This document shows positions 469 through 10,773 of a stretch of 10,773 nt of DNA, in pieces. A program made the position numbers and the translations under genes. The stretch comes from a virus (Duplodnaviria; Heunggongvirae; Uroviricota; Caudoviricetes). How positions within the stretch are numbered: the stretch's first letter is position 1; the number at the start of each line of letters is the position of its first letter. The stretch lies in IMG/VR virus record IMGVR_UViG_2681813269_000008; one strand, given 5' to 3'. The notes beneath the pieces are model-generated. The model was not told where the DNA came from. It made no database searches and saw nothing but the letters and a program-made list of their open reading frames with translations.

Positions 469-502
469 ATCCCGCCCCCCGACAGACCTGTGCTATCGGA
501 AA

Positions 503-534
503 GAAAAAAGGCCATCAGCAAAACTCTGATGGCC
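503..534 (-). terminator. Predicted rho-independent terminator (minus strand) just upstream of the holin gene
   Basis: Perfect 9-bp stem GGCCATCAG (510-518) / CTGATGGCC (526-534) with a 7-nt loop. On the minus strand the hairpin is followed by a U-run (complement of GAAAAAA at 503-509). Confidence 0.5.
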
Positions 535-579
535 TGAATCACCTTTACCAATATTGTATGAAAAAACACGCACGACTAA

Positions 580-608
580 TTGACAATAATTTTCATTTCC
601 ATTAAAAA
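580..608 (+). promoter_or_regulatory. Candidate sigma70 promoter on the plus strand (TTGACA, 17-nt spacer, TAAAAA)
   Basis: Consensus -35 TTGACA at 580-585, a 17-nt spacer, and a weak -10 TAAAAA at 603-608 in an AT-rich context. It points toward the terminator hairpin at 644-710. Prediction only. Confidence 0.25.
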
Positions 609-643
609 AGATCGCGTAGCATTCTTAATTCATGAGGAACTTT

Positions 644-710
644 ACCCGCCAGCAATCTGAGTAGCGAAAGCTGTTCATCCCCAATGTTTTTGCTGGCGGG
701 TCCTTTTTTC
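644..710 (+). terminator. Long-stem hairpin plus T-run; intrinsic terminator and/or 3' end of a candidate small RNA (plus strand)
   Basis: Perfect 11-bp arms CCCGCCAGCAA (645-655) / TTGCTGGCGGG (690-700) enclose a 34-nt loop with a possible internal GAAA tetraloop stem, followed by TTTTTT (704-709). A second weaker hairpin and T-run lies at about 722-757. Confidence 0.45.
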
Positions 711-1148
711 TACGGTCCTCCTCCCCGGAGGGGGGCATTTCATTATTTTTCTAATCGTTACTGGTGAGAAGGCGGAAGAAAAAGCCAGTTCTTCGCCCCT
801 AAATAACAGCATGATTCCAGTCCATGCAAAATCTGATTTCCAGCTCACACATACCGAGCGCTGTACAAAAAACCGCCAGCCAAGGCAGTTAAGAGTGTGT
901 TCCCGGGGTTTGCTTAGAATATTTTGTAAGTTGTCCGAAGAGATATTTACAACACCAGAATGATGAATCATCAGTCCCCTGCCAGAGGTTCACTACGTAA
1001 CCTGACCGACAATGCACCATTCTGGTGCTGAAAAAAGAGCACTGGAACTGCAACAAAACAACATCACAGAACAGGAGATGGTAAGGAGTCAGACATTCCC
1101 ACACAATATTGTGTCAGTGCAAATAACAACCTTCGTCTCAAATCTCGC

Positions 1149-1223
<75 letters not shown>

Positions 1224-1226
1224 ATA

Positions 1227-1302
<76 letters not shown>

Positions 1303-1304
1303 GC

Positions 1305-1381
1305 TGGCCCACCACCGAGGACTCGAACCTCGCACCGTCAACTTAGAAGGTTGATGCTCTATCCGGATGAGCTAGTGGTGG
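1305..1381 (-). tRNA. tRNA-Arg (anticodon TCT)
   Basis: Minus-strand CCACCACTAGCTCATCCGGATAGAGCATCAACCTTCTAAGTTGACGGTGCGAGGTTCGAGTCCTCGGTGGTGGGCCA. Acceptor stem CCACCAC/GTGGTGG, anticodon stem TCAAC/GTTGA, loop CTTCTAA, encoded CCA. Confidence 0.88.
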
Positions 1382-1382
1382 T

Positions 1383-1459
1383 TGGTGGCCCTTGCTGGAC
1401 TTGAACCAGCGACCTGGCGATTATGAGTCGCTCGCTCTGACCAACTGAGCTAAAGGGCC
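1383..1459 (-). tRNA. tRNA with CAT anticodon, most likely tRNA-Ile2 (lysidine-modified), ileX/ileZ-like
   Basis: Minus-strand GGCCCTTTAGCTCAGTTGGTCAGAGCGAGCGACTCATAATCGCCAGGTCGCTGGTTCAAGTCCAGCAAGGGCCACCA. Anticodon loop CTCATAA. The body resembles E. coli tRNA-Ile2 rather than initiator or elongator tRNA-Met, as I recall them. Confidence 0.85.
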
Positions 1460-1547
1460 GGAGGCAGAATAATAACCATATGTCATCACATCTGCAAACT
1501 CATCTGACCACCAGCACGTTTAACGTCCTGTGCCGTTTTTCAGGTAT

Positions 1548-1573
1548 AAAAAAACCCGCTCATCGGCGGGTTT
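1548..1573 (-). terminator. Predicted rho-independent terminator (minus strand) downstream of the ORF6N-like gene
   Basis: Stem CCCGC (1555-1559) / GCGGG (1566-1570) with a 6-nt loop. On the minus strand it is followed by a 7-U run (complement of the A-run at 1548-1554). Confidence 0.6.
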
Positions 1574-1648
1574 AAGCTGTGTGGCGTAGTAACCACTCTT
1601 AACAGGATATTCAACTTTTTACGATCGTAAAGTTTTCGGAAAAAATTT

Positions 1649-2218
1649 TTAAAACCGCATCAACCGCTCCACCAGTTGCTCTTTACGGGCAACGATCCAC
1701 CCGTGTTGCTCCAGATAAAATTTAAACCGTTCCAGAGTACATACCATCGCATCGGCGGGTACCTTTTCCGTGAACTCAACCTGACCGTGTTTATCGAAGT
1801 GGCTCAGTAATGCGCATCCATCATTTTCGATAGATGTGTTTTGTGCCGCTGGTGGCTGTTTCTGGTTGAAATAACAGTCTTCCAGTTTTTCGAACACTTC
1901 CCACGCCTGATCGGTTTCGAGCATTTTGGCGTGACGGGCTGCGCCACGTTCTGTCCAGAGGATGAGGGAGCGAACGTTACGGGCAATTTTCACAGAAACT
2001 CTTAAAGAGTTTTCGTTCTTCAACTCTCGTAACGCATCACCTTCTATCAGGAAAAAATGTTTACCTTCTATAAACCGTTCTTTGTTTCGATTGAAATTGT
2101 TTGTCAAACGCTGGCGCTCTGTTCCGTACAAATCAGCCAGCAGCTCTGTTGTCATGACAGGAAGATGGTTATGCGTAAGTGACGGGAGTTTTTCAATAGA
2201 CGTGCGATTCATAGACAT
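1649..2218 (-). CDS. ORF6N/KilA-N-like phage DNA-binding (antirepressor-like) protein; start uncertain
   Basis: The open frame runs 1649-2410 (253 aa). The conserved region starts near MSMNRTSIEKLPSLTHNHLPVMTTELLADLYGTERQRLTNNFNRNKERFIEGKHFFLIEGDALRELK...WTERGAARHAKMLETDQAWEVFEKL, which resembles the ORF6N domain by recall. An AAAGGA Shine-Dalgarno sits before the ATG pair at 2218/2212. The 64-codon upstream extension has no protein-like character. Confidence 0.6.
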   Translation of the reverse strand: MSMNRTSIEKLPSLTHNHLPVMTTELLADLYGTERQRLTNNFNRNKERFIEGKHFFLIEGDALRELKNENSLRVSVKIARNVRSLILWTERGAARHAKMLETDQAWEVFEKLEDCYFNQKQPPAAQNTSIENDGCALLSHFDKHGQVEFTEKVPADAMVCTLERFKFYLEQHGWIVARKEQLVERLMRF

Positions 2219-2573
2219 GTCCTTTCGAATATTTTGATTTACCCCTTTTGAGAGGGTGACCGGGCGCTCAAAACCGTCGAAAGTCGGCGGGCGTATTTCC
2301 ATTGCTGGTATTGTATTAGCCGCACACCCGGTCATAAACCAAGAATTCTGGACACAAAAAAACCACATGGCTATCGGGTGTGGATACCGCTTTCGAGGTG
2401 TTTTGAGCACCGCGGGGAAATGTAAACTGCAAACCTGAAACTGTCAACACCGTCAGGTTCCAATCATCGGGTGGTGAGACGCACAGGGTTGGAACTACCG
2501 GGAAACCGACCGGCGAGCTTTTCAGCTCCCCCATGCGCCCCACCATAATTCAGATGTGCGCGTGCATACGACA

Positions 2574-2597
2574 ATAAAAAACACGCTCGCGGCGTGT
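2574..2597 (-). terminator. tR'-like intrinsic terminator downstream of the late promoter (minus strand)
   Basis: Minus-strand ACACGC-CGCGA-GCGTGT hairpin (6-bp stem) followed by TTTTTTAT. It lies about 55-80 nt downstream of the predicted PR' start, as in lambdoid late leaders. Confidence 0.55.
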
Positions 2598-2658
2598 GTC
2601 TGTCGCGGTCTCTATCCGGGGTTCCAATCCCGACGCCAGATTTTGCTGGCGCGTGAGG

Positions 2659-2688
2659 AATATAGCCCCGGACAATGTGTCTGGTCAA
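2659..2688 (-). promoter_or_regulatory. PR'-like late promoter immediately downstream of Q
   Basis: Minus-strand TTGACC (-35, plus 2683-2688), 18-nt spacer, TATATT (-10, plus 2659-2664). It begins 5 bp after the Q stop codon, the canonical lambdoid position for PR'. Confidence 0.55.
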
Positions 2689-2692
2689 GCAC

Positions 2693-3079
2693 CTACATAA
2701 TTCGTTCTACGTATCTGTCCATCTCCAGCCGGATATCAAGCATCATCAACATGCCATCAATAACCCCTTCCGCTTTCTGCAGGCGCTTGCCAATACAGGT
2801 ATCCGAACACCCATGTTTCCGTGCCAGACTCATAAAAGTCATTCCACCTACGTAATAATCCACCAGCAAATCGTGCAAATCCTGATTTTTCTTGTTCAAC
2901 CGGGCCATACAGCCACAAATTATCATTGCATCATCATCAGAACACTGAGGGCGTGATTTCACTTTCGACGGAATTAACCCTTTAAAACCAGCAGCGATCG
3001 ACGCCCAGGATACATCTTCATGAGTGTTTGCAGCCCAAGCCCCCCACCGTTCCATAACCTGCTGAATATCACGCGCCAT
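2693..3079 (-). CDS. Late antiterminator Q (phage antitermination Q family, QuuD/phage 82-like)
   Basis: [121 protein letters not shown] closely resembles QuuD-type Q proteins as I recall them. The track ORF extends to 3100, but the ATG at 3079 has a good AGGTGA Shine-Dalgarno and overlaps the rusA stop. Confidence 0.85.
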
Positions 3080-3440
3080 CGTTATCACCTGTGATTTCAT
3101 AAATCTTCACGCCCAGTCGCCCACCAGGAACGAGCTGACCGCGCACAATATTGATTTCATCAAACTGCTCGTCGTCTATGAGTAGTCCGGCATGCGTCAG
3201 CGCATCCAGTGGTGCTTTCAGGATATTGTCCAGGTCACGACGGCGCTTATCCGGTGGCTCTGCAATAATCTTTATCGCCAGCCTTCCGGACAGGTTTAAT
3301 TTCAGCCGCTGCTGGCGAACAATTAGCGTCACATCACGGCGATAACGCTCACCAACTTTTGATACAAAATATGTGCTGCCACGACGTCGCCAGTAAGTAT
3401 TCACCGTCGGCGGATAAGGTAAAATAAACTCATGGCGCAT
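3069..3440 (-). CDS. rusA: Holliday junction resolvase RusA
   Basis: 123 aa: [21 protein letters not shown]...[31 protein letters not shown]...[11 protein letters not shown]. This matches the RusA hallmark motifs (PPS/TxN, DxRRRDLDN, D/E acidic cluster). The start overlaps the upstream stop (TGATG). Confidence 0.9.
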
Positions 3441-3697
3441 CAGCGCAGCACCTCCTGCACCATTTTTTCAAACTTTCCAACTTTGGTTTCCAGCTCTGCC
3501 ACACAATCAACGAGCTCATCCACCGCTTTTTGTGCGCGATGTTTCGCCTGCATCAGTTCCCTGAGCGCTGGCACCATATCCCGACGAATGGCATCTTTTG
3601 TTACACCTGTTTTTTCCAGTTGTTCCGCCTGTCGCAACATTTCCTGCGCGTGTTTACGCAATTGTTCAGAGGTAAAAGTCATTGTCTGGTTGTTCAA
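3440..3697 (-). CDS. Small hypothetical phage protein, predicted coiled-coil, unknown function
   Basis: 85-codon frame between the helicase and rusA. The 5'-most start is TTG, overlapping the helicase stop; an internal ATG lies at 3682. Charged, heptad-like sequence (EQLRKHAQEMLRQAEQLEK...). No family recognised. Confidence 0.5.
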   Translation of the reverse strand: MNNQTMTFTSEQLRKHAQEMLRQAEQLEKTGVTKDAIRRDMVPALRELMQAKHRAQKAVDELVDCVAELETKVGKFEKMVQEVLR

Positions 3698-5085
3698 AAG
3701 AAACGCTCCATCTTACTGCTGTCGGTACGTGTATTGCTGTATCTGCGCGGCTGGGGCTGCCGCATTGGGGTGGAAAGAACCTGTGCGCTTTCCTGGTCCA
3801 CAGGCAGAAAATGTCCGTTATAAAAACGCCGGTAAATCGTCCCCAGAGAACCGTTACGTTGTTTCGTGATATTAATTTCTGCTATGCCTGTAGCCTGTGT
3901 ATCCGGGTTGTACACTTCATCCCTGTAAAGCATCAGAATGATGTCTGCATCCGCCTCTATTTCTCCGGAATTTTTCAGGTCTGAGTTCATGGGACGTTTA
4001 TTGGGTCTGGACTCCACACCGCGGGAGAGCTGGCTCAGCGCAATCAACGGAAAACCACCGGATTTTGCCAGGCCTTTAAGCCCCTTTGAGATTTCACCCA
4101 CGGCAAGGTCATGACGCCCCGTGGTTCGGGTTTTTATCAGCCCGAGATAATCAACCACCACCAGCGCCGTTTCCGGATGTTTAATCAGATGGTGTTTCGT
4201 TGTTGCGCATATCTCATCAATGGTCAGGTTCGCCTGGTCCACCATCCAGATATTGCGCCCGGTCATCCGCCCCACCCCTTGTGAGAAACGCGCCCAGTCT
4301 TCATCTTCAAAGTGAGCCACAGATTTCAGGCGTGATACTGGCATCCCTCCAGCCGCAGACACCATACGTTCACCAATCTGGATGTTCGCCATCTCCATGG
4401 TGAACAGAAGCACACCATGCCCCTGCTCAGTCACCTTGTCGATGATGTCCAGCGCAAGTTCGGTTTTCCCCATCGAAGGACGGGCGGCAATGAATACCAG
4501 GTCTCCGGGCTCCATACCGCCTGTTTTTGCGTCCAGTTCATCAATACCGGTCATCAACGTCCTGGATTTCTCCAGCCCCTGATTCCGGCATTCAACACGC
4601 TCAACCACTTCCGGAAGCACATCATCAATATGTACCGGCTGAATGACGCCCTTTCCTGTCGACAGTGTGACCATCATGTTCTGCGCATCCTTCAGGGCAT
4701 CTTCAGCTGCTTCACAGGTATGCGCATCACGTAATTTCTGCAGCGCCTCATTCAGTGTTTTTTCTGCATCGCGCAGTGCGGCATTGCGCCGCAACGCTGC
4801 AACATAGTGCTCCAGTGAAGACTTCACCCAGGTTTTACGCCCGGTATCAGTAATCACCGGGGCAAGTTCCGGCATCTCATTACACAACAGCACGGGGTCA
4901 ATCACTCCTGAAACACGGGCCTGTCTGCAGATGCCTGTGTAGATATCCCGATACGCTCGTACAGAAAAAATGTCCGCCGGTAGTGTGATCAGAATATCCA
5001 TCACTTCATGATCTGCCCCACGCAGAAAGAATGCGCCAATGACAGCGCCTTCCAGGTCATCATTACGCCAGACTGGTGTTGTCAT
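3694..5085 (-). CDS. Phage replicative DNA helicase, DnaB family
   Basis: DnaB N-terminal-like region ([13 protein letters not shown]...) and RecA-like C-terminal domain with Walker [10 protein letters not shown], Walker B VVVDYLGL and [20 protein letters not shown]. The ATG at 5085 has a GAGGTG Shine-Dalgarno 9 nt upstream. The track ORF reaching 5145 begins at a GTG inside IS-derived sequence and is an artefactual extension. Confidence 0.9.
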
Positions 5086-5140
5086 GCAGCCACACCTCTG
5101 ATACAAGAACGGTAGCTGGGCCAGTTGAACGACAACCAGT

Positions 5141-5255
5141 ATCACTTAACCCATTACTGGCTTGCTGCCGTAGATATTCCCGTGGCGAGCGATAACCCAG
5201 TGCACTATGCGGATGCCATTCGTTATAATGCTCGAACGCCTCTGCAAGGTTCTTT
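5141..5255 (-). mobile_element. IS2-like internal fragment (3' end of the transposase gene) lacking the terminal inverted repeat
   Basis: The minus strand encodes ...[38 protein letters not shown], matching the C-terminus of the IS2 transposase as I recall it. The same sequence recurs at 10675-10773, where it is preceded by the 32-bp IS2-like terminus that is absent here. Confidence 0.6.
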
Positions 5256-5522
5256 AAAGCCGAAGCTGTCAGAACGGTTCTTGAAAATCAACTTTCGATC
5301 AGTGAAGGCGCTTCCCGATTATCTCTTCCTGAAGGCACTTTAGGACAATGGGTTACCGCCGCCAGAAAAGGGCTCGGTACTCCTGGTTCCCGCACGGTGG
5401 CTGAACTGGAATCTGAAATTCTGCAACTGCGTAAGGCGTTAAATGAAGCTCGCCTTGAGCGAGATATATTAAAAAAAGCAACAGCGTATTTTGCACAGGA
5501 GTCGCTGAAAAATACGCGTTAA
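5256..5522 (+). pseudogene. IS3-family orfA, N-terminally truncated (no start codon)
   Basis: Frame reads ...[89 protein letters not shown], a helix-turn-helix plus leucine-zipper OrfA. An in-frame TAA lies just upstream and there is no ATG. Confidence 0.7.
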
Positions 5523-5557
5523 TCGAACAATGGCGACAACAATTTCCCATTGAAGCG

Positions 5558-6376
5558 ATGTGTCAGGTATTTGGTGTATCCAGGAGCGGTTATTACAACT
5601 GGGTACAGCATGAACCCTCAGACAGAAAACAAAGTGATGAGCGGCTAAAACTGGAGATTAAGGTGGCACATATCCGCACTCGCGAAACATATGGAACCCG
5701 GCGGCTCCAGACGGAGCTGGCAGAGAATGGCATCATCGTTGGTCGTGACCGACTGGCACGTCTTCGTAAGGAGCTAAGGCTACGCTGTAAGCAGAAACGC
5801 AAGTTCAGAGCGACTACGAACTCGAACCACAATCTGCCAGTTGCGCCAAATCTGCTGAACCAGACGTTCGCTCCTACAGCACCAAATCAGGTCTGGGTGG
5901 CGGACCTGACGTATGTTGCCACACAGGAGGGATGGTTGTACCTCGCTGGCATCAAAGATGTTTATACGTGCGAAATTGTCGGCTACGCCATGGGAGAGCG
6001 CATGACAAAAGAGCTGACAGGTAAAGCCCTGTTTATGGCGCTCAGGAGCCAGCGCCCACCTGCCGGGCTAATCCACCACTCTGATCGAGGTTCACAGTAC
6101 TGCGCATACGATTACCGGGTCATACAGGAGCAGTCTGGTCTGAAAACATCAATGTCGCGTAAAGGTAACTGTTACGACAACGCTCCGATGGAAAGCTTCT
6201 GGGGAACGCTGAAAAATGAGAGCCTGAGCCACTATCGTTTTAATAACCGGGATGAAGCCATCTCAGTAATACGGGAATACATTGAGATTTTCTACAATCG
6301 TCAGCGTCGTCACTCTCGTCTGGGGAATATCTCCCCGGCAGCCTTCAGGGAAAAATATCATCAGATGGCTGCTTAA
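5558..6376 (+). CDS. IS3-family transposase OrfB (DDE integrase catalytic domain)
   Basis: 272 aa with the DDE triad context WVADLTY, HHSDRGSQY and CYDNAPMESFWGTLK. The frame is open from the slippery site at 5471, consistent with an OrfAB frameshift fusion. Because orfA is truncated, a functional fusion is unlikely. Confidence 0.85.
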   Translation: MCQVFGVSRSGYYNWVQHEPSDRKQSDERLKLEIKVAHIRTRETYGTRRLQTELAENGIIVGRDRLARLRKELRLRCKQKRKFRATTNSNHNLPVAPNLLNQTFAPTAPNQVWVADLTYVATQEGWLYLAGIKDVYTCEIVGYAMGERMTKELTGKALFMALRSQRPPAGLIHHSDRGSQYCAYDYRVIQEQSGLKTSMSRKGNCYDNAPMESFWGTLKNESLSHYRFNNRDEAISVIREYIEIFYNRQRRHSRLGNISPAAFREKYHQMAA

Positions 6377-6469
6377 AAAAAGAACAAATGGTAGTGTCCG
6401 CTATTGCCAGTACACCTCACACTCTATCCAACAAACCACCCACAGTTAATCGGAATAAAAGCAGAGTGC

Positions 6470-6595
6470 TTATGAATGATCGCACGCCCGAAGGTTAGTA
6501 TTTCTGCACAGCAATTTTGCAAAAAAAGGCGATCATTCATAACTTAAACGTCTTTCAGTCACTCCGGGATTTCCCATCATCGCAGACTGAAAGAC
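6470..6595. repeat. Two adjacent perfect inverted repeats (14-bp arms and 11-bp arms) in the copy-2 flank
   Basis: TTATGAATGATCGC (6470-6483) pairs with GCGATCATTCATAA (6529-6542) across a 45-nt spacer. GTCTTTCAGTC (6550-6560) pairs with GACTGAAAGAC (6585-6595) across a 24-nt spacer. The second ends 6 bp from the tRNA-Gly 3' end. Confidence 0.6.
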
Positions 6596-6601
6596 TCTGA
6601 C

Positions 6602-6676
<75 letters not shown>

Positions 6677-6679
6677 ATA

Positions 6680-6755
<76 letters not shown>

Positions 6756-6757
6756 GC

Positions 6758-6834
6758 TGGCCCACCACCGAGGACTCGAACCTCGCACCGTCAACTTAGA
6801 AGGTTGATGCTCTATCCGGATGAGCTAGTGGTGG
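6758..6834 (-). tRNA. tRNA-Arg (anticodon TCT), copy 2
   Basis: Identical to 1305-1381 (offset 5453). Confidence 0.88.
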
Positions 6835-6835
6835 T

Positions 6836-6912
6836 TGGTGGCCCTTGCTGGACTTGAACCAGCGACCTGGCGATTATGAGTCGCTCGCTCTGACCAACTG
6901 AGCTAAAGGGCC
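6836..6912 (-). tRNA. tRNA-Ile2-like (anticodon CAT), copy 2
   Basis: Identical to 1383-1459 (offset 5453). Confidence 0.85.
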
Positions 6913-7000
6913 GGAGGCAGAATAATAACCATATGTCATCACATCTGCAAACTCATCTGACCACCAGCACGTTTAACGTCCTGTGCCGTTTTTCAGGTAT

Positions 7001-7026
7001 AAAAAAACCCGCTCATCGGCGGGTTT
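7001..7026 (-). terminator. Predicted rho-independent terminator, copy 2
   Basis: Identical to 1548-1573 (offset 5453). Confidence 0.6.
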
Positions 7027-7101
7027 AAGCTGTGTGGCGTAGTAACCACTCTTAACAGGATATTCAACTTTTTACGATCGTAAAGTTTTCGGAAAAAATT
7101 T

Positions 7102-7671
7102 TTAAAACCGCATCAACCGCTCCACCAGTTGCTCTTTACGGGCAACGATCCACCCGTGTTGCTCCAGATAAAATTTAAACCGTTCCAGAGTACATACCAT
7201 CGCATCGGCGGGTACCTTTTCCGTGAACTCAACCTGACCGTGTTTATCGAAGTGGCTCAGTAATGCGCATCCATCATTTTCGATAGATGTGTTTTGTGCC
7301 GCTGGTGGCTGTTTCTGGTTGAAATAACAGTCTTCCAGTTTTTCGAACACTTCCCACGCCTGATCGGTTTCGAGCATTTTGGCGTGACGGGCTGCGCCAC
7401 GTTCTGTCCAGAGGATGAGGGAGCGAACGTTACGGGCAATTTTCACAGAAACTCTTAAAGAGTTTTCGTTCTTCAACTCTCGTAACGCATCACCTTCTAT
7501 CAGGAAAAAATGTTTACCTTCTATAAACCGTTCTTTGTTTCGATTGAAATTGTTTGTCAAACGCTGGCGCTCTGTTCCGTACAAATCAGCCAGCAGCTCT
7601 GTTGTCATGACAGGAAGATGGTTATGCGTAAGTGACGGGAGTTTTTCAATAGACGTGCGATTCATAGACAT
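7102..7671 (-). CDS. ORF6N/KilA-N-like phage DNA-binding (antirepressor-like) protein, copy 2
   Basis: Identical to 1649-2218; the track ORF 7102-7863 is the same extended frame. Confidence 0.6.
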   Translation of the reverse strand: MSMNRTSIEKLPSLTHNHLPVMTTELLADLYGTERQRLTNNFNRNKERFIEGKHFFLIEGDALRELKNENSLRVSVKIARNVRSLILWTERGAARHAKMLETDQAWEVFEKLEDCYFNQKQPPAAQNTSIENDGCALLSHFDKHGQVEFTEKVPADAMVCTLERFKFYLEQHGWIVARKEQLVERLMRF

Positions 7672-8026
7672 GTCCTTTCGAATATTTTGATTTACCCCTT
7701 TTGAGAGGGTGACCGGGCGCTCAAAACCGTCGAAAGTCGGCGGGCGTATTTCCATTGCTGGTATTGTATTAGCCGCACACCCGGTCATAAACCAAGAATT
7801 CTGGACACAAAAAAACCACATGGCTATCGGGTGTGGATACCGCTTTCGAGGTGTTTTGAGCACCGCGGGGAAATGTAAACTGCAAACCTGAAACTGTCAA
7901 CACCGTCAGGTTCCAATCATCGGGTGGTGAGACGCACAGGGTTGGAACTACCGGGAAACCGACCGGCGAGCTTTTCAGCTCCCCCATGCGCCCCACCATA
8001 ATTCAGATGTGCGCGTGCATACGACA

Positions 8027-8050
8027 ATAAAAAACACGCTCGCGGCGTGT
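8027..8050 (-). terminator. tR'-like intrinsic terminator, copy 2
   Basis: Identical to 2574-2597 (offset 5453). Confidence 0.55.
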
Positions 8051-8111
8051 GTCTGTCGCGGTCTCTATCCGGGGTTCCAATCCCGACGCCAGATTTTGCT
8101 GGCGCGTGAGG

Positions 8112-8141
8112 AATATAGCCCCGGACAATGTGTCTGGTCAA
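8112..8141 (-). promoter_or_regulatory. PR'-like late promoter, copy 2
   Basis: Identical to 2659-2688 (offset 5453). Confidence 0.55.
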
Positions 8142-8145
8142 GCAC

Positions 8146-8532
8146 CTACATAATTCGTTCTACGTATCTGTCCATCTCCAGCCGGATATCAAGCATCATC
8201 AACATGCCATCAATAACCCCTTCCGCTTTCTGCAGGCGCTTGCCAATACAGGTATCCGAACACCCATGTTTCCGTGCCAGACTCATAAAAGTCATTCCAC
8301 CTACGTAATAATCCACCAGCAAATCGTGCAAATCCTGATTTTTCTTGTTCAACCGGGCCATACAGCCACAAATTATCATTGCATCATCATCAGAACACTG
8401 AGGGCGTGATTTCACTTTCGACGGAATTAACCCTTTAAAACCAGCAGCGATCGACGCCCAGGATACATCTTCATGAGTGTTTGCAGCCCAAGCCCCCCAC
8501 CGTTCCATAACCTGCTGAATATCACGCGCCAT
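8146..8532 (-). CDS. Late antiterminator Q, copy 2
   Basis: Identical to 2693-3079; track ORF 8146-8553. Confidence 0.85.
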
Positions 8533-8893
8533 CGTTATCACCTGTGATTTCATAAATCTTCACGCCCAGTCGCCCACCAGGAACGAGCTGACCGCGCACA
8601 ATATTGATTTCATCAAACTGCTCGTCGTCTATGAGTAGTCCGGCATGCGTCAGCGCATCCAGTGGTGCTTTCAGGATATTGTCCAGGTCACGACGGCGCT
8701 TATCCGGTGGCTCTGCAATAATCTTTATCGCCAGCCTTCCGGACAGGTTTAATTTCAGCCGCTGCTGGCGAACAATTAGCGTCACATCACGGCGATAACG
8801 CTCACCAACTTTTGATACAAAATATGTGCTGCCACGACGTCGCCAGTAAGTATTCACCGTCGGCGGATAAGGTAAAATAAACTCATGGCGCAT
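8522..8893 (-). CDS. rusA: Holliday junction resolvase RusA, copy 2
   Basis: Identical to 3069-3440. Confidence 0.9.
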
Positions 8894-9150
8894 CAGCGCA
8901 GCACCTCCTGCACCATTTTTTCAAACTTTCCAACTTTGGTTTCCAGCTCTGCCACACAATCAACGAGCTCATCCACCGCTTTTTGTGCGCGATGTTTCGC
9001 CTGCATCAGTTCCCTGAGCGCTGGCACCATATCCCGACGAATGGCATCTTTTGTTACACCTGTTTTTTCCAGTTGTTCCGCCTGTCGCAACATTTCCTGC
9101 GCGTGTTTACGCAATTGTTCAGAGGTAAAAGTCATTGTCTGGTTGTTCAA
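8893..9150 (-). CDS. Small hypothetical coiled-coil phage protein, copy 2
   Basis: Identical to 3440-3697. Confidence 0.5.
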   Translation of the reverse strand: MNNQTMTFTSEQLRKHAQEMLRQAEQLEKTGVTKDAIRRDMVPALRELMQAKHRAQKAVDELVDCVAELETKVGKFEKMVQEVLR

Positions 9151-10538
9151 AAGAAACGCTCCATCTTACTGCTGTCGGTACGTGTATTGCTGTATCTGCG
9201 CGGCTGGGGCTGCCGCATTGGGGTGGAAAGAACCTGTGCGCTTTCCTGGTCCACAGGCAGAAAATGTCCGTTATAAAAACGCCGGTAAATCGTCCCCAGA
9301 GAACCGTTACGTTGTTTCGTGATATTAATTTCTGCTATGCCTGTAGCCTGTGTATCCGGGTTGTACACTTCATCCCTGTAAAGCATCAGAATGATGTCTG
9401 CATCCGCCTCTATTTCTCCGGAATTTTTCAGGTCTGAGTTCATGGGACGTTTATTGGGTCTGGACTCCACACCGCGGGAGAGCTGGCTCAGCGCAATCAA
9501 CGGAAAACCACCGGATTTTGCCAGGCCTTTAAGCCCCTTTGAGATTTCACCCACGGCAAGGTCATGACGCCCCGTGGTTCGGGTTTTTATCAGCCCGAGA
9601 TAATCAACCACCACCAGCGCCGTTTCCGGATGTTTAATCAGATGGTGTTTCGTTGTTGCGCATATCTCATCAATGGTCAGGTTCGCCTGGTCCACCATCC
9701 AGATATTGCGCCCGGTCATCCGCCCCACCCCTTGTGAGAAACGCGCCCAGTCTTCATCTTCAAAGTGAGCCACAGATTTCAGGCGTGATACTGGCATCCC
9801 TCCAGCCGCAGACACCATACGTTCACCAATCTGGATGTTCGCCATCTCCATGGTGAACAGAAGCACACCATGCCCCTGCTCAGTCACCTTGTCGATGATG
9901 TCCAGCGCAAGTTCGGTTTTCCCCATCGAAGGACGGGCGGCAATGAATACCAGGTCTCCGGGCTCCATACCGCCTGTTTTTGCGTCCAGTTCATCAATAC
10001 CGGTCATCAACGTCCTGGATTTCTCCAGCCCCTGATTCCGGCATTCAACACGCTCAACCACTTCCGGAAGCACATCATCAATATGTACCGGCTGAATGAC
10101 GCCCTTTCCTGTCGACAGTGTGACCATCATGTTCTGCGCATCCTTCAGGGCATCTTCAGCTGCTTCACAGGTATGCGCATCACGTAATTTCTGCAGCGCC
10201 TCATTCAGTGTTTTTTCTGCATCGCGCAGTGCGGCATTGCGCCGCAACGCTGCAACATAGTGCTCCAGTGAAGACTTCACCCAGGTTTTACGCCCGGTAT
10301 CAGTAATCACCGGGGCAAGTTCCGGCATCTCATTACACAACAGCACGGGGTCAATCACTCCTGAAACACGGGCCTGTCTGCAGATGCCTGTGTAGATATC
10401 CCGATACGCTCGTACAGAAAAAATGTCCGCCGGTAGTGTGATCAGAATATCCATCACTTCATGATCTGCCCCACGCAGAAAGAATGCGCCAATGACAGCG
10501 CCTTCCAGGTCATCATTACGCCAGACTGGTGTTGTCAT
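9147..10538 (-). CDS. Phage replicative DNA helicase, DnaB family, copy 2
   Basis: Identical to 3694-5085. The 510-aa track ORF (to 10679) is an artefactual in-frame extension across 49 bp of flank and the IS2-like terminus. Confidence 0.9.
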   Translation of the reverse strand: MTTPVWRNDDLEGAVIGAFFLRGADHEVMDILITLPADIFSVRAYRDIYTGICRQARVSGVIDPVLLCNEMPELAPVITDTGRKTWVKSSLEHYVAALRRNAALRDAEKTLNEALQKLRDAHTCEAAEDALKDAQNMMVTLSTGKGVIQPVHIDDVLPEVVERVECRNQGLEKSRTLMTGIDELDAKTGGMEPGDLVFIAARPSMGKTELALDIIDKVTEQGHGVLLFTMEMANIQIGERMVSAAGGMPVSRLKSVAHFEDEDWARFSQGVGRMTGRNIWMVDQANLTIDEICATTKHHLIKHPETALVVVDYLGLIKTRTTGRHDLAVGEISKGLKGLAKSGGFPLIALSQLSRGVESRPNKRPMNSDLKNSGEIEADADIILMLYRDEVYNPDTQATGIAEINITKQRNGSLGTIYRRFYNGHFLPVDQESAQVLSTPMRQPQPRRYSNTRTDSSKMERFF

Positions 10539-10642
10539 GCAGCCACACCTCTGATACAAGAACGGTAGCTGGGCCAGTTGAACGACAACCAGTTGCGCCC
10601 CCCGTCTGTGATCCTGTCGGCAATGCGGGGGCTGATGAACGC
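10535..10642 (-). pseudogene. 3' remnant of the gene upstream of the helicase (probable replication initiator or helicase loader), cut by the IS2-like insertion
   Basis: Minus-strand frame ...[35 protein letters not shown] ends in a TGA that overlaps the helicase ATG (ATGA coupling). The frame is open right up to the IS2-like terminus at 10643. No family assignment is possible from 35 codons. Confidence 0.35.
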
Positions 10643-10773
10643 TGGATTTGCCCCTATATTTCCAGACACCTGTTATCACTTAACCCATTACTGGCTTGCT
10701 GCCGTAGATATTCCCGTGGCGAGCGATAACCCAGTGCACTATGCGGATGCCATTCGTTATAATGCTCGAACGC
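10643..10773 (-). mobile_element. IS2-like element, right terminus and 3' end of the transposase gene; runs off the window end
   Basis: TGGATTTGCCCCTATATTTCCAGACACCTGTTATCACTTAACCCATTAC... matches the reverse complement of the IS2 right inverted repeat as I recall it, with about one mismatch. The minus strand encodes the transposase C-terminus ...[10 protein letters not shown]. Confidence 0.6.

What the first reader, a model, noticed from the sequence alone, without database searches (positions are those of the whole stretch)
6415..6600. Inverted-repeat-rich 186-bp spacer between the IS3-family end and copy-2 tRNA-Gly
The spacer contains two perfect inverted repeats, 14-bp arms with a 45-nt spacer (6470-6542) and 11-bp arms with a 24-nt spacer (6550-6595). 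The second ends 6 bp from the tRNA-Gly 3' end. Perfect arms of this length are unlikely by chance. They could be a processing or termination structure for the tRNA transcript, a recombinase binding site, or the relic of a small inverted-repeat-bounded element.
Basis: seen in the sequence. Interest (0 to 1): 0.45.

Follow-up and report, generated by a model that had tools for sequence, protein, structure and literature searches.

The report
Truncated prophage tRNA-trailer structured RNA
The hairpin-rich spacer is the front three-quarters, cut off by an IS600 insertion, of a conserved and apparently undescribed non-coding RNA that follows a phage glycine tRNA and precedes the cell-lysis genes in many E. 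coli-type prophages; its first hairpin looks like a kink-turn.

Summary
Both perfect inverted repeats are where stated, and 0 of 5000 shuffles reach 14 bp. RNA folding adds a third hairpin at 6420-6468. The true spacer is 6420-6601, because the IS600 end is at 6419.

All three hairpins belong to one conserved unit of about 215-230 nt, read on the minus strand, the sense strand of the tRNAs and the late operon. Intact copies read: tRNA-Gly(UCC), 3-8 nt linker, HP-A, HP-B, HP-C, intrinsic terminator, holin. Here IS600 has removed the terminator and the lysis genes.

Evidence for an RNA-level element:
- 44 distinct homologs keep 98.8% of pairs, against 39-47% when partners are slid.
- 11 pairs change on both sides.
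- There are 354 G.U cells against 13 A.C cells.
- No reading frame is conserved.

HP-A has a kink-turn layout, and its tandem G.A/A.G nucleotides are invariant in 43 of 43 variants found without constraining them. HP-A follows about 65% of sampled phage tRNA-Gly(UCC) genes across five enterobacterial genera.

The spacer occurs in 517 of 5426 complete E. coli genomes, about one copy each, and is never annotated. It has no Rfam family. It is not PasA, PasC, PasD or STnc100.

Function is inferred: a tRNA 3' trailer that ends non-antiterminated transcription before the holin, and possibly a stable regulatory RNA.

The parts
6602..6676 (-). tRNA-Gly(UCC), last gene of the Met(CAT)-Arg(UCU)-Thr(UGU)-Gly(UCC) cluster. 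The element begins 6 nt after its 3' end.
   Evidence: ARAGORN; Rfam tRNA. In 86 distinct contexts HP-A is usually 3-8 nt after a tRNA-Gly(UCC).
6596..6601 (-). Six-nt purine-rich linker (GUCAGA) between the tRNA CCA end and HP-A. It is the presumed site of 3' endonucleolytic tRNA processing (inferred).
   Evidence: Sequence. The linker varies among homologs, e.g. GUUAGA, GUUUAA, GAAAAA, AACAAU.
6550..6595 (-). An 11-bp outer stem (6585-6595 / 6550-6560) encloses a kink-turn-like internal loop. The loop reads: C6582-G6562 (-1b:-1n); bulge G6581 A6580 U6579; G6578.A6563; A6577.G6564; U6576.G6565. It is capped by a 3-bp stem (6573-6575 / 6566-6568) and the loop AAAU.
   Evidence: Covariance model R1 scores 73.7 bits on the minus strand and finds no other copy in the window.
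6470..6542 (-). A long hairpin whose 45-nt 'loop' contains a conserved inner helix (UUUUUGCA/UGCAGAAA) and a small CC-UUCG-GG hairpin.
   Evidence: Helices 3-5; 5 pairs of the outer helix change on both sides.
6420..6469 (-). Its outer 8-bp helix has lost its closing G-C pair to the IS600 junction, leaving G6469 without a partner.
   Evidence: Helix 6 has 3 pairs changed on both sides. The junction is seen.
6428..6441 (-). GGGUGGUUUGUUGG, a GU-rich 14-mer in the upper part of HP-C. It is nearly invariant across both clades, and the inner helix proposed for it shows no double-sided covariation. It is a candidate single-stranded seed or binding site (inferred).
   Evidence: Invariant columns; helix 7 statistics.
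6394..6419 (+). Right terminal inverted repeat of IS600. This is the insertion that cut the element off from its terminator and from the holin gene.
   Evidence: Exact match to TGAGGTGTACTGGCAATAGCGGACAC on the minus strand. RefSeq annotates the IS in L139 as an 'IS3-like element IS600 family transposase'. orfB at 5558-6376 carries rve domains.
6922..6951 (-). Weak sigma-70-like site (TTTGCA-18-TATTAT) about 10 nt upstream of the first tRNA. It is a possible own promoter for the tRNA-plus-trailer unit (weak, inferred).
   Evidence: same site in L002, but the number of matches is no higher than in shuffles.
7005..7026 (-). Intrinsic terminator upstream of the tRNA cluster, closing the preceding ORF6N/antirepressor unit.

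Best explanation
WHAT IT IS (well supported). The spacer is an IS600-truncated copy of a conserved, non-coding, structured RNA module of about 215-230 nt. It is carried by lambdoid prophages in the late-operon leader, immediately 3' of a phage tRNA-Gly(UCC) and immediately 5' of the lysis cassette. It is read on the window's minus strand. It consists of HP-A (a hairpin with a kink-turn-type internal loop), HP-B, HP-C and, in intact copies, an intrinsic terminator 60-90 nt before the holin start codon. In this window IS600 sits exactly at the 3' foot of HP-C, so the terminator and the lysis genes are gone and the 182 nt that remain are a relic.

HOW IT PROBABLY WORKS (inferred, about 45-50% for this version).
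1. The module is the 3' trailer of the tRNA transcription unit.
2. RNAP that is not Q-modified, whether it starts at a tRNA promoter or leaks through upstream terminators, stops at the module's terminator. This keeps the holin silent in the lysogen. Q-modified RNAP reads through.
3. Endonucleolytic 3' maturation of tRNA-Gly in the short linker releases an RNA whose very 5' end is the stable HP-A hairpin.
4. Depending on whether termination occurred, that product is either a discrete trailer RNA of about 220 nt or the 5' end of the lysis mRNA. In either case the three hairpins protect it from 5'-end-dependent decay and from exonucleases.
5. The kink-turn and the invariant GU-rich stretch suggest an additional protein-binding or base-pairing role.
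For: CONTEXT. Intact homologs read tRNA cluster, element, terminator, holin/lysozyme/Rz in E. coli CFSAN029787, the Stx2f phage phi467 and phage PhiR47_1. The same order holds across 86 distinct contexts, with several holin families and several Q families.

STRUCTURE. RNAalifold on 44 distinct sequences returns the same three hairpins, with 11 pairs changed on both sides. 98.8% of cells are paired, against 39-47% for slid partners. The covariation score is 0.211, against 0.04-0.09.

STRAND. There are 354 G.U cells against 13 A.C cells. 98.8% of cells pair on the tRNA-sense strand, against 85.7% on the other strand.

HP-A ACROSS GENERA. 98.6% of cells are paired and 4 pairs change on both sides.

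KINK-TURN. The search pattern left the loop free. In 43 of 43 distinct sequences G1b, A2b, G2n and A1n are invariant. L3 varies (U/A/G). The 3b.3n pair varies (U.G, A.G, U.U). The -1b:-1n pair is C:G in 40 of 43. These match the published definition and folding rules (PMC8191799).

NOT CODING. No frame is open across the family, substitutions show no 3-periodicity, and 1-2-nt indels occur.

DISTRIBUTION. The spacer is in 517 of 5426 complete E. coli genomes. The median is 1 copy and the maximum 3. All copies are chromosomal, near full length and unannotated. About 65% of the first 120 IMG/VR tRNA-Gly(UCC) 3' ends are followed by HP-A. HP-A is present in Escherichia, Shigella, Serratia, Rahnella and Ewingella.

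TRUNCATION. The window aligns to the intact copies up to ...GGAUAGAGUG and then runs into the IS600 inverted repeat. The same junction exists in L033 and two other viral contigs.
Against: No expression, processing or half-life data were available, so every functional step is inference.

Most double-sided changes separate just two clades, the E. coli type and the HK639 type. They therefore represent few independent events.

Much of the sample was retrieved with patterns that fix parts of HP-A, which inflates apparent conservation. The stem-only and tRNA-anchored scans reduce this bias but do not remove it.

The promoter-like site upstream of the tRNAs is weak and no more frequent than in shuffles. 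If the tRNAs are made only from Q-modified transcripts, a terminator there would have little effect.

In the window's closest relative (L002) the terminator stem is degenerate (GCCCGCUUUUGCG-U7) and the scan does not call it.

Some phages have lost HP-A but keep HP-B (L154). Others have HP-A without a tRNA (L077). The modules are therefore separable, and no single function is obligatory.

The kink-turn is inferred from sequence rules only.
Confidence: 0.6

Rival explanations
1. Trans-acting small RNA of the tRNA 3'-external-transcribed-spacer type. After excision from the tRNA precursor, the terminator-ended RNA of about 220 nt accumulates in lysogens. It then base-pairs with host or phage mRNAs or sRNAs as a regulator or sponge, through the invariant GU-rich stretch and/or the conserved HP-B apex. 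The terminator U-tail would serve as an Hfq or ProQ handle. This overlaps with the best explanation rather than excluding it.
For: The unit is discrete: it starts at a tRNA 3' end and ends at an intrinsic terminator. The GGGUGGUUUGUUGG stretch is nearly invariant, while the helix drawn for it shows only one-sided changes. The same slot downstream of Q/pR' is known to hold Hfq-bound sRNAs (Tree et al. 2014, PMC4104026; PasA-D, PMC8550237 and the 2026 Zhu/Storz preprint). STnc100 lies directly next to the element in HK639.
Against: There are no expression or Hfq-binding data for this RNA. No complementary site turned up in the flanking phage DNA of L002 or L003 beyond chance. The RNA is long and almost fully base-paired, unlike typical seed-bearing sRNAs. 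The terminator is degenerate in some copies.
Confidence: 0.25
2. Protein-recruiting RNA handle. The HP-A kink-turn is bound by a phage or host protein, and this binding couples tRNA processing or late-mRNA fate to lysis control.
For: The kink-turn nucleotides are strictly invariant, while the neighbouring stems and the apical loop vary. The hairpin architecture, a k-turn with a short capped NC helix, resembles known protein-binding k-turn hairpins such as the U4 5' stem-loop and box C/D (PMC2952850 listed; the resemblance itself is from my own knowledge). HP-A is retained across five genera while HP-B and HP-C are replaced.
Against: To my knowledge no L7Ae-family k-turn binder is known in Enterobacteriaceae. 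No candidate protein was identified here. K-turns with 3n = G fold in Mg2+ alone and may simply be architectural.
Confidence: 0.1
3. DNA-level element. The palindromes are binding sites for a recombinase or regulator, or the ends of a decayed miniature inverted-repeat element.
For: The arms are perfect in this copy. The spacer lies next to an IS and a tRNA gene, both common recombination targets.
Against: G.U against A.C asymmetry (354 against 13) shows selection on one RNA strand. Stems change by compensatory substitutions while loop sequences are conserved. The element is single-copy per prophage, never dispersed and never on plasmids in E. coli. There are no target-site duplications and no transposase association other than the secondary IS600 insertion.
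Confidence: 0.03
4. Chance palindromes, or part of a protein-coding gene. Some phage records annotate a hypothetical protein over the region.
For: H21 and H22 list a 'hypothetical protein' under the match. Short ORFs of 58-59 aa can be drawn in some copies.
Against: 0 of 5000 shuffles reach 14 bp. No frame is conserved, there is no codon periodicity, and frame-breaking indels occur.
Confidence: 0.02

Closest known systems
3' external transcribed spacer RNAs of tRNA operons (e.g. 3'ETS-leuZ of glyW-cysT-leuZ in E. coli; from my own knowledge, Lalaouna et al. 2015)
   Same: It lies directly after the last tRNA of a polycistronic tRNA unit and ends at the unit's intrinsic terminator. It would be released by the normal 3' processing of the tRNA.
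   Different: It is about four times longer, with three large hairpins and a kink-turn. It is phage-borne and sits in front of a lysis cassette. No sponge or Hfq activity has been shown.
sRNA/terminator modules in the pR'-to-lysis 'moron' slot of lambdoid prophages (STnc100 RF02076, PasD/EcOnc13, PasA/PasC, StxS)
   Same: It occupies the same genomic niche between Q and the holin. It is non-coding, terminator-bounded, and swaps in and out between related phages.
   Different: It shows no sequence or model similarity: Rfam is negative and BLAST gives E >= 0.1. PasA and PasC are on the opposite strand. This module is tied to a tRNA-Gly 3' end.
Kink-turn motifs (H. marismortui Kt-7, box C/D, U4 5' stem-loop)
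   Same: It has a 3-nt bulge followed by tandem G.A/A.G, with -1b:-1n = C:G and 3n = G. The variant C-GAA-GAA/GGA-G is, from my memory of Kt-7, the same core. The motif sits in a capped hairpin, as in U4 and C/D k-loops.
   Different: The context, 3' of a bacterial phage tRNA, has not been described. There is no known binding protein in these hosts, and no 3D or folding data.
Stable RNAs encoded with the phage T4 tRNA cluster (species 1 and 2 / rnaC, rnaD; from my own knowledge)
   Same: They are structured RNAs of unknown function, co-transcribed with and processed from a phage tRNA cluster.
   Different: The phage group is unrelated (virulent T-even). No sequence relationship was tested or is expected.

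Membership tests
Kink-turn (k-turn) RNA motif | Duplex interrupted by a three-nucleotide bulge, followed on its 3' side by tandem G:A and A:G pairs (PMC8191799) | tested here: met
   HP-A reads: C-helix ...G.U, C-G; bulge G-A-W; then G.A, A.G. With the loop unconstrained, G1b, A2b, G2n and A1n are invariant in 43 of 43 distinct sequences, and L3 is variable. Window coordinates are given under parts.
Kink-turn (k-turn) RNA motif | Sequence rules for folding: -1b:-1n usually C:G; 3n = G folds well in Mg2+; 3b:3n not Watson-Crick | tested here: met
   -1b:-1n is C:G in 40 of 43 and U.G in 3. 3n is G in 41 of 43. 3b:3n is U.G, A.G or U.U. One U-A case (L005) would be predicted to fold poorly.
Kink-turn (k-turn) RNA motif | Tightly kinked 3D geometry (about 50 degrees) and/or L7Ae-family protein binding | not testable with these tools
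   Needs FRET, gel mobility assays, crystallography or binding assays.
Intrinsic (Rho-independent) terminator | GC-rich hairpin with a short loop, immediately followed by a U-tract | tested here: not met
   None of the three hairpins in 6420-6601 is called and none has a U-tail. A true terminator (GCCCGCUUUUGCGGGU-UUUU) lies after HP-C in intact copies but is missing from the window.
Any Rfam 15 family (including STnc100, isrK, C4, IpeX-like sRNAs) | Covariance-model match at or near the gathering score | tested here: not met
   No hit in 6420-6601 at E <= 1. No hit on the intact element in L002 at E <= 10 other than chance matches of 13 bits. In L077 the STnc100 hit abuts HP-A, but HP-A is only forced onto the model's 3' hairpin.
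PasA/PasC prophage sRNAs | Sequence homology to E2348/69 pasA or pasC; antisense to the late operon; own terminator hairpin with the seed overlapping it | tested here: not met
   The pasA and pasC loci were fetched. BLAST with word size 7 gives nothing better than 14 nt, E = 0.12. The present element is on the sense strand.
tRNA 3'ETS-derived RNA | Starts at the processed 3' side of the last tRNA and ends at the operon terminator | tested here: met
   The geometry holds in intact copies. In the window the terminator is lost.
tRNA 3'ETS-derived RNA | Released by RNase E; accumulates; binds Hfq and partner sRNAs | not testable with these tools
   No transcriptomic or interaction data were accessible for a strain carrying the element.
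Miniature inverted-repeat element / REP-type repeat | Terminal inverted repeats bounding the unit, target-site duplication, many dispersed copies per genome | tested here: not met
   561 places in 517 genomes, with a median of 1 and a maximum of 3, always in the same prophage slot. The inverted repeats are internal hairpins, not termini.
Prophage 'moron' (autonomous promoter-gene-terminator insert in the late operon) | Own promoter upstream and own terminator downstream | tested here: inconclusive
   The terminator is present in intact copies. The upstream promoter-like site recurs in L002, but it matches only 9 of 12 positions and such sites are as frequent in shuffles.

The most novel reading that the evidence does not exclude
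HP-A is a genuine kink-turn that recruits a so-far-unknown phage or host protein to the RNA immediately 3' of phage tRNA-Gly(UCC). This would make the module a new class of phage riboregulator that links tRNA excision to the stability or translation of the lysis mRNA, and hence to lysis timing, or that acts in trans on host RNAs. It would be the first functional k-turn RNP described in enterobacterial phage biology.
Probability: 0.12. Interest if true: 0.7.

Novelty: new member of a known kind. Interest (0 to 1): 0.42.

Why it matters
About one in ten complete E. coli genomes carries this unannotated RNA, as do several temperate phages. These include an Stx2f-converting phage, in which the element lies between stx2f plus the tRNAs and the holin gene. 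The element sits at the point where late transcription enters the lysis genes.

If it sets read-through, mRNA stability or a trans-regulatory output, it bears on three questions:
- how prophages keep the holin silent;
- how phage-borne tRNAs are expressed and matured;
- how toxin release is timed.

It would also add a clean bacterial example of a sequence-predictable kink-turn. For this particular window, the practical message is that the spacer is a dead, IS600-truncated relic. It should be annotated as such, not as a recombination site.

Tried and rejected
1. Rfam scans of the window, of eight related loci and of the intact element gave no family for the spacer.

2. The PasA, PasC and PasD lead from the 2026 preprint and the RIL-seq paper was rejected. 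The niche is the same, but the sequence differs, and for PasA and PasC so does the strand.

3. STnc100 is adjacent in HK639 and fused upstream of HP-A in L077, but it is not homologous to HP-A.

4. A promoter inside the conserved HP-B loop, on either strand, was checked. Hexamers are poor, are not conserved in the HK639 clade, and are not called by the scan (by eye).

5. A riboswitch-like alternative pairing between HP-B's CGGGC and the terminator was considered. The complementarity is absent in the HK639-type terminator, so I dropped it (by eye).

6. A cis target for the GU-rich 14-mer in flanking phage DNA was sought. Only the self-match and chance-level hits appeared.

7. Coding potential was rejected.

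8. Literal sequence searches of the paper library and a search for HK639 literature found nothing relevant. Searches for kink-turn plus prophage, and for 3'ETS plus prophage, found no description of this element.

9. I first called the ORF at 7102-7863 the Q gene. Pfam shows it is an ORF6N-domain protein, and Q is at 8146-8553.

Full report
OBSERVATION. The two perfect inverted repeats are real and at the stated coordinates: 6470-6483 / 6529-6542 (14 bp, 45 nt apart) and 6550-6560 / 6585-6595 (11 bp, 24 nt apart). The second repeat ends 6 nt from the 3' end of tRNA-Gly(UCC), which lies at 6602-6676 on the minus strand. In 5000 dinucleotide-preserving shuffles of 6420-6601, none has a perfect repeat of 14 bp or more and 7 have one of 11 bp or more. 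There are two corrections. The IS ends at 6419, not 6414, because its terminal inverted repeat is 6394-6419; the spacer is therefore 6420-6601. Folding the minus strand also shows a third hairpin at 6420-6468. The three-hairpin fold has MFE -61.4 kcal/mol and z = -4.1.

SURROUNDINGS. The window holds two copies of a 5.45-kb prophage segment. Each copy reads on the minus strand as follows:
- a DnaB-like helicase;
- RusA;
- the Q antiterminator (8146-8553);
- a C4/IsrK-type antisense-RNA region;
- an ORF6N-domain protein (7102-7863);
- an intrinsic terminator (7026-7005);
- four tRNAs: Met(CAT), Arg(UCU), Thr(UGU), Gly(UCC).

The duplication stops at 6596/1143, so the spacer is not part of it. 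In copy 1, tRNA-Gly is followed by an unrelated stretch of about 680 bp and then a P21-type holin (253-468) and a lysozyme. In copy 2 the spacer runs into IS600. About 84 bp of IS600's own left end is missing.

WHAT THE SPACER IS. The 179 bp from 6420 to 6598 occur at 95-100% identity in 517 of 5426 complete E. coli genomes. The median is one copy per genome and the maximum three. All copies are chromosomal and none is annotated. The sequence also occurs in temperate phages phi467 (Stx2f), PhiR47_1, vB_EcoS-689R5 and vB_EcoM-606R7, and at 79% identity in HK639. In the IS-free copies the order is tRNA cluster, this sequence, an intrinsic terminator, a Shine-Dalgarno sequence, then holin, lysozyme and Rz. 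The window aligns to these copies up to ...GGAUAGAGUG and then switches to the IS600 inverted repeat. The C that would close HP-C, the terminator and the lysis genes are all missing. The identical IS600 junction is present in three IMG/VR contigs such as L033.

RNA-LEVEL CONSERVATION. A pattern scan for the HP-A loop gave more than 120 viral loci and hits in Escherichia, Shigella, Serratia, Rahnella and Ewingella genomes. I aligned 44 distinct three-hairpin sequences (A2) and found the following:
- RNAalifold recovers HP-A, HP-B and HP-C, with 11 pairs changed on both sides.
- 98.8% of cells are standard pairs, against 39-47% when the 3' partners are slid by 1-3 columns.
- The covariation score is 0.211, against 0.04-0.09 for slid partners.
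- 354 cells are G.U and 13 are A.C. The structure is therefore read on the tRNA / late-operon sense strand: 98.8% paired there, against 85.7% on the other strand.
- No reading frame is conserved. Median stop-free runs are 23-33 of about 60 codons, variable columns fall 33/31/27 over the three phases, and 1-2-nt indels are common.

There is a caveat. Most double changes separate two clades, the E. coli type and the HK639 type, so the number of independent events is small.

HP-A IS A KINK-TURN-TYPE HAIRPIN. On the minus strand, HP-A in the window has this layout:
- an 11-bp stem;
- a bulged U (6584);
- G6583.U6561;
- C6582-G6562 (-1b:-1n);
- a three-nucleotide bulge, G6581 A6580 U6579;
- G6578.A6563 and A6577.G6564, the tandem sheared pairs;
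- U6576.G6565 (3b.3n);
- three G-C pairs;
- a 3-4-nt apical loop.

This is the definition of a standard k-turn, and -1b:-1n = C:G with 3n = G are the features that favour folding in Mg2+ (PMC8191799). To avoid circularity I rescanned viral contigs with a pattern that fixes only the stems. In 43 distinct sequences the four G/A positions are invariant, L3 is U, A or G, 3b is U or A, and 3n is G in 41 and U in 2. The variant C-GAA-GAA / GGA-G matches, from my memory, the Haloarcula Kt-7 core. Across genera the HP-A stems are 98.6% paired, with 4 pairs changed on both sides. A covariance model of HP-A scores 73.7 bits at 6547-6598 on the minus strand and finds no other copy in the window. It recovers three divergent copies and one distant relative (L167) among loci chosen only for their tRNA-Gly. 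The only Rfam echo is a 13-bit chance match to a C/D-box snoRNA, which picks up the C-box-like AUGAUG.

ASSOCIATION WITH tRNA-Gly AND WITH LYSIS GENES. I anchored a scan on the tRNA-Gly(UCC) 3' end alone. About 78 of the first 120 viral hits, roughly 65%, are followed by HP-A. Another 13 carry the copy-1-type trailer. In 86 distinct contexts HP-A usually starts 3-8 nt after tRNA-Gly. An intrinsic terminator follows at +130 to +200, and the next ORF is a holin of one of several families. HP-B and HP-C are replaced by other long hairpins in the Serratia and Rahnella types. One phage has lost HP-A but keeps HP-B (L154). A few copies have HP-A without a tRNA, preceded by an STnc100-like core (L077). 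The unit is therefore modular.

MECHANISM. What is shown: a conserved, sense-strand, non-coding structured RNA unit bounded by a tRNA 3' end and a terminator, sitting just before the holin. What is inferred from general knowledge of E. coli tRNA maturation and of Q antitermination:
- The unit is the 3' trailer of the tRNA transcription unit.
- Its terminator stops RNAP that is not Q-modified before the holin, while Q-modified RNAP reads through.
- Cleavage in the short linker during tRNA 3' maturation leaves an RNA that begins with HP-A.
- That structured 5' end would protect either a discrete trailer RNA of about 220 nt or the lysis mRNA.

The invariant k-turn and the nearly invariant GGGUGGUUUGUUGG (6428-6441) hint at protein binding or base pairing. 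I found no local complementary target. An own promoter for the tRNAs is only weakly suggested. In this window the element is a truncated relic.

COMPARISON WITH WHAT IS KNOWN. The niche is known. The region downstream of Q and pR' accepts 'moron' inserts and holds Hfq-bound sRNAs (PMC4104026). PasA and PasC lie directly upstream of the holin, and PasD and STnc100 lie downstream of Q. This element is none of these: Rfam is negative, BLAST gives E >= 0.1, and PasA and PasC are on the opposite strand. Functionally the nearest analogues are tRNA 3'ETS RNAs and the stable RNAs of the T4 tRNA cluster; both comparisons rest on my own knowledge. Sequence-literal and keyword searches of the paper library found no description of the element. 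RefSeq leaves it unannotated.

VERDICT. The spacer is an IS600-truncated member of an apparently undescribed structured-RNA family in a known niche. I rate it as a new member of a known kind, of moderate interest (0.42). The main open point is function, and the kink-turn is the most unusual feature.

Noticed in passing
window 7703-8118 and 2250-2665 (minus strand): Rfam hits above gathering score lie between the Q gene and an ORF6N-domain (antirepressor-like) ORF: c4-a1b1, isrK, C4 antisense RNA and sRNA-Xcc1. The last of these sits inside the 5' part of the ORF. The arrangement looks like a P1/P7 immI-type or Gifsy-1 IsrK/AnrP-type antisense-RNA/antirepressor module placed downstream of Q.
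   Followed up: partly
window 1143-5239 vs 6596-10773: A 5.45-kb direct duplication covers the prophage segment from the helicase gene to tRNA-Gly. The DnaB-like helicase ORFs differ by an 81-bp in-frame indel near the N-terminus (483 aa against 510 aa). The two copies have different sequences downstream of tRNA-Gly.
   Followed up: partly
window 469-1148 (minus strand): The copy-1 tRNA-Gly-to-holin intergenic region (about 680 bp) is unrelated to the spacer. It belongs to another recurrent family of phage tRNA-Gly trailers: 13 of the tRNA-anchored viral hits have it, and several other trailer types share a GCACUGRC...GUGGG motif near the tRNA end.
   Followed up: no
window ~5240-6419: The IS600 copy lacks about 84 bp of its left end, including the left inverted repeat. 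It is joined at about 5239/5240 to the sequence upstream of the copy-1 helicase gene (5131-5239 = 10665-10773). This suggests an IS-associated deletion or rearrangement. The identical IS600/HP-C junction occurs in three IMG/VR contigs (e.g. L033).
   Followed up: partly
L004 (phage HK639) 2706-3260: In HK639 the tRNA-Gly upstream of the element has a degenerate 5' half and is not called by ARAGORN. An STnc100 copy (52.6 bits) follows directly after the element's terminator, so at least two terminator-bounded RNA modules sit in series before the lysis genes.
   Followed up: partly
L077 2876-3086 and 2888-2933: In some Serratia/Rahnella-type phage contigs HP-A has no tRNA upstream. It is instead fused directly behind an STnc100-like core (44 bits, just under gathering score).
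   Followed up: partly
L167 6121-6171: A distant HP-A-like hairpin (24 bits) keeps the C-GAA-GAA / GGA-G kink-turn core but has different stems. It lies after a further tRNA downstream of tRNA-Gly.
   Followed up: no
L001 (Stx2f phage phi467) 5890-7113: The element lies between the stx2f operon plus tRNA-Thr/Gly and the holin S gene. Late transcripts carrying the toxin genes must therefore pass through it to reach the lysis genes.
   Followed up: partly
phage records ON470583.1 and ON470580.1 (hits H21, H22): A 'hypothetical protein' is annotated across the element. Given the lack of a conserved frame, this is probably a spurious gene call.
   Followed up: no
window 6661-6688 (minus strand): A 10/12 sigma-70-like match (TCGGCA-16-TATAAT) lies inside the tRNA-Thr/tRNA-Gly genes and recurs in all homologs simply because it is tRNA sequence. 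It is almost certainly a consensus artefact.
   Followed up: no
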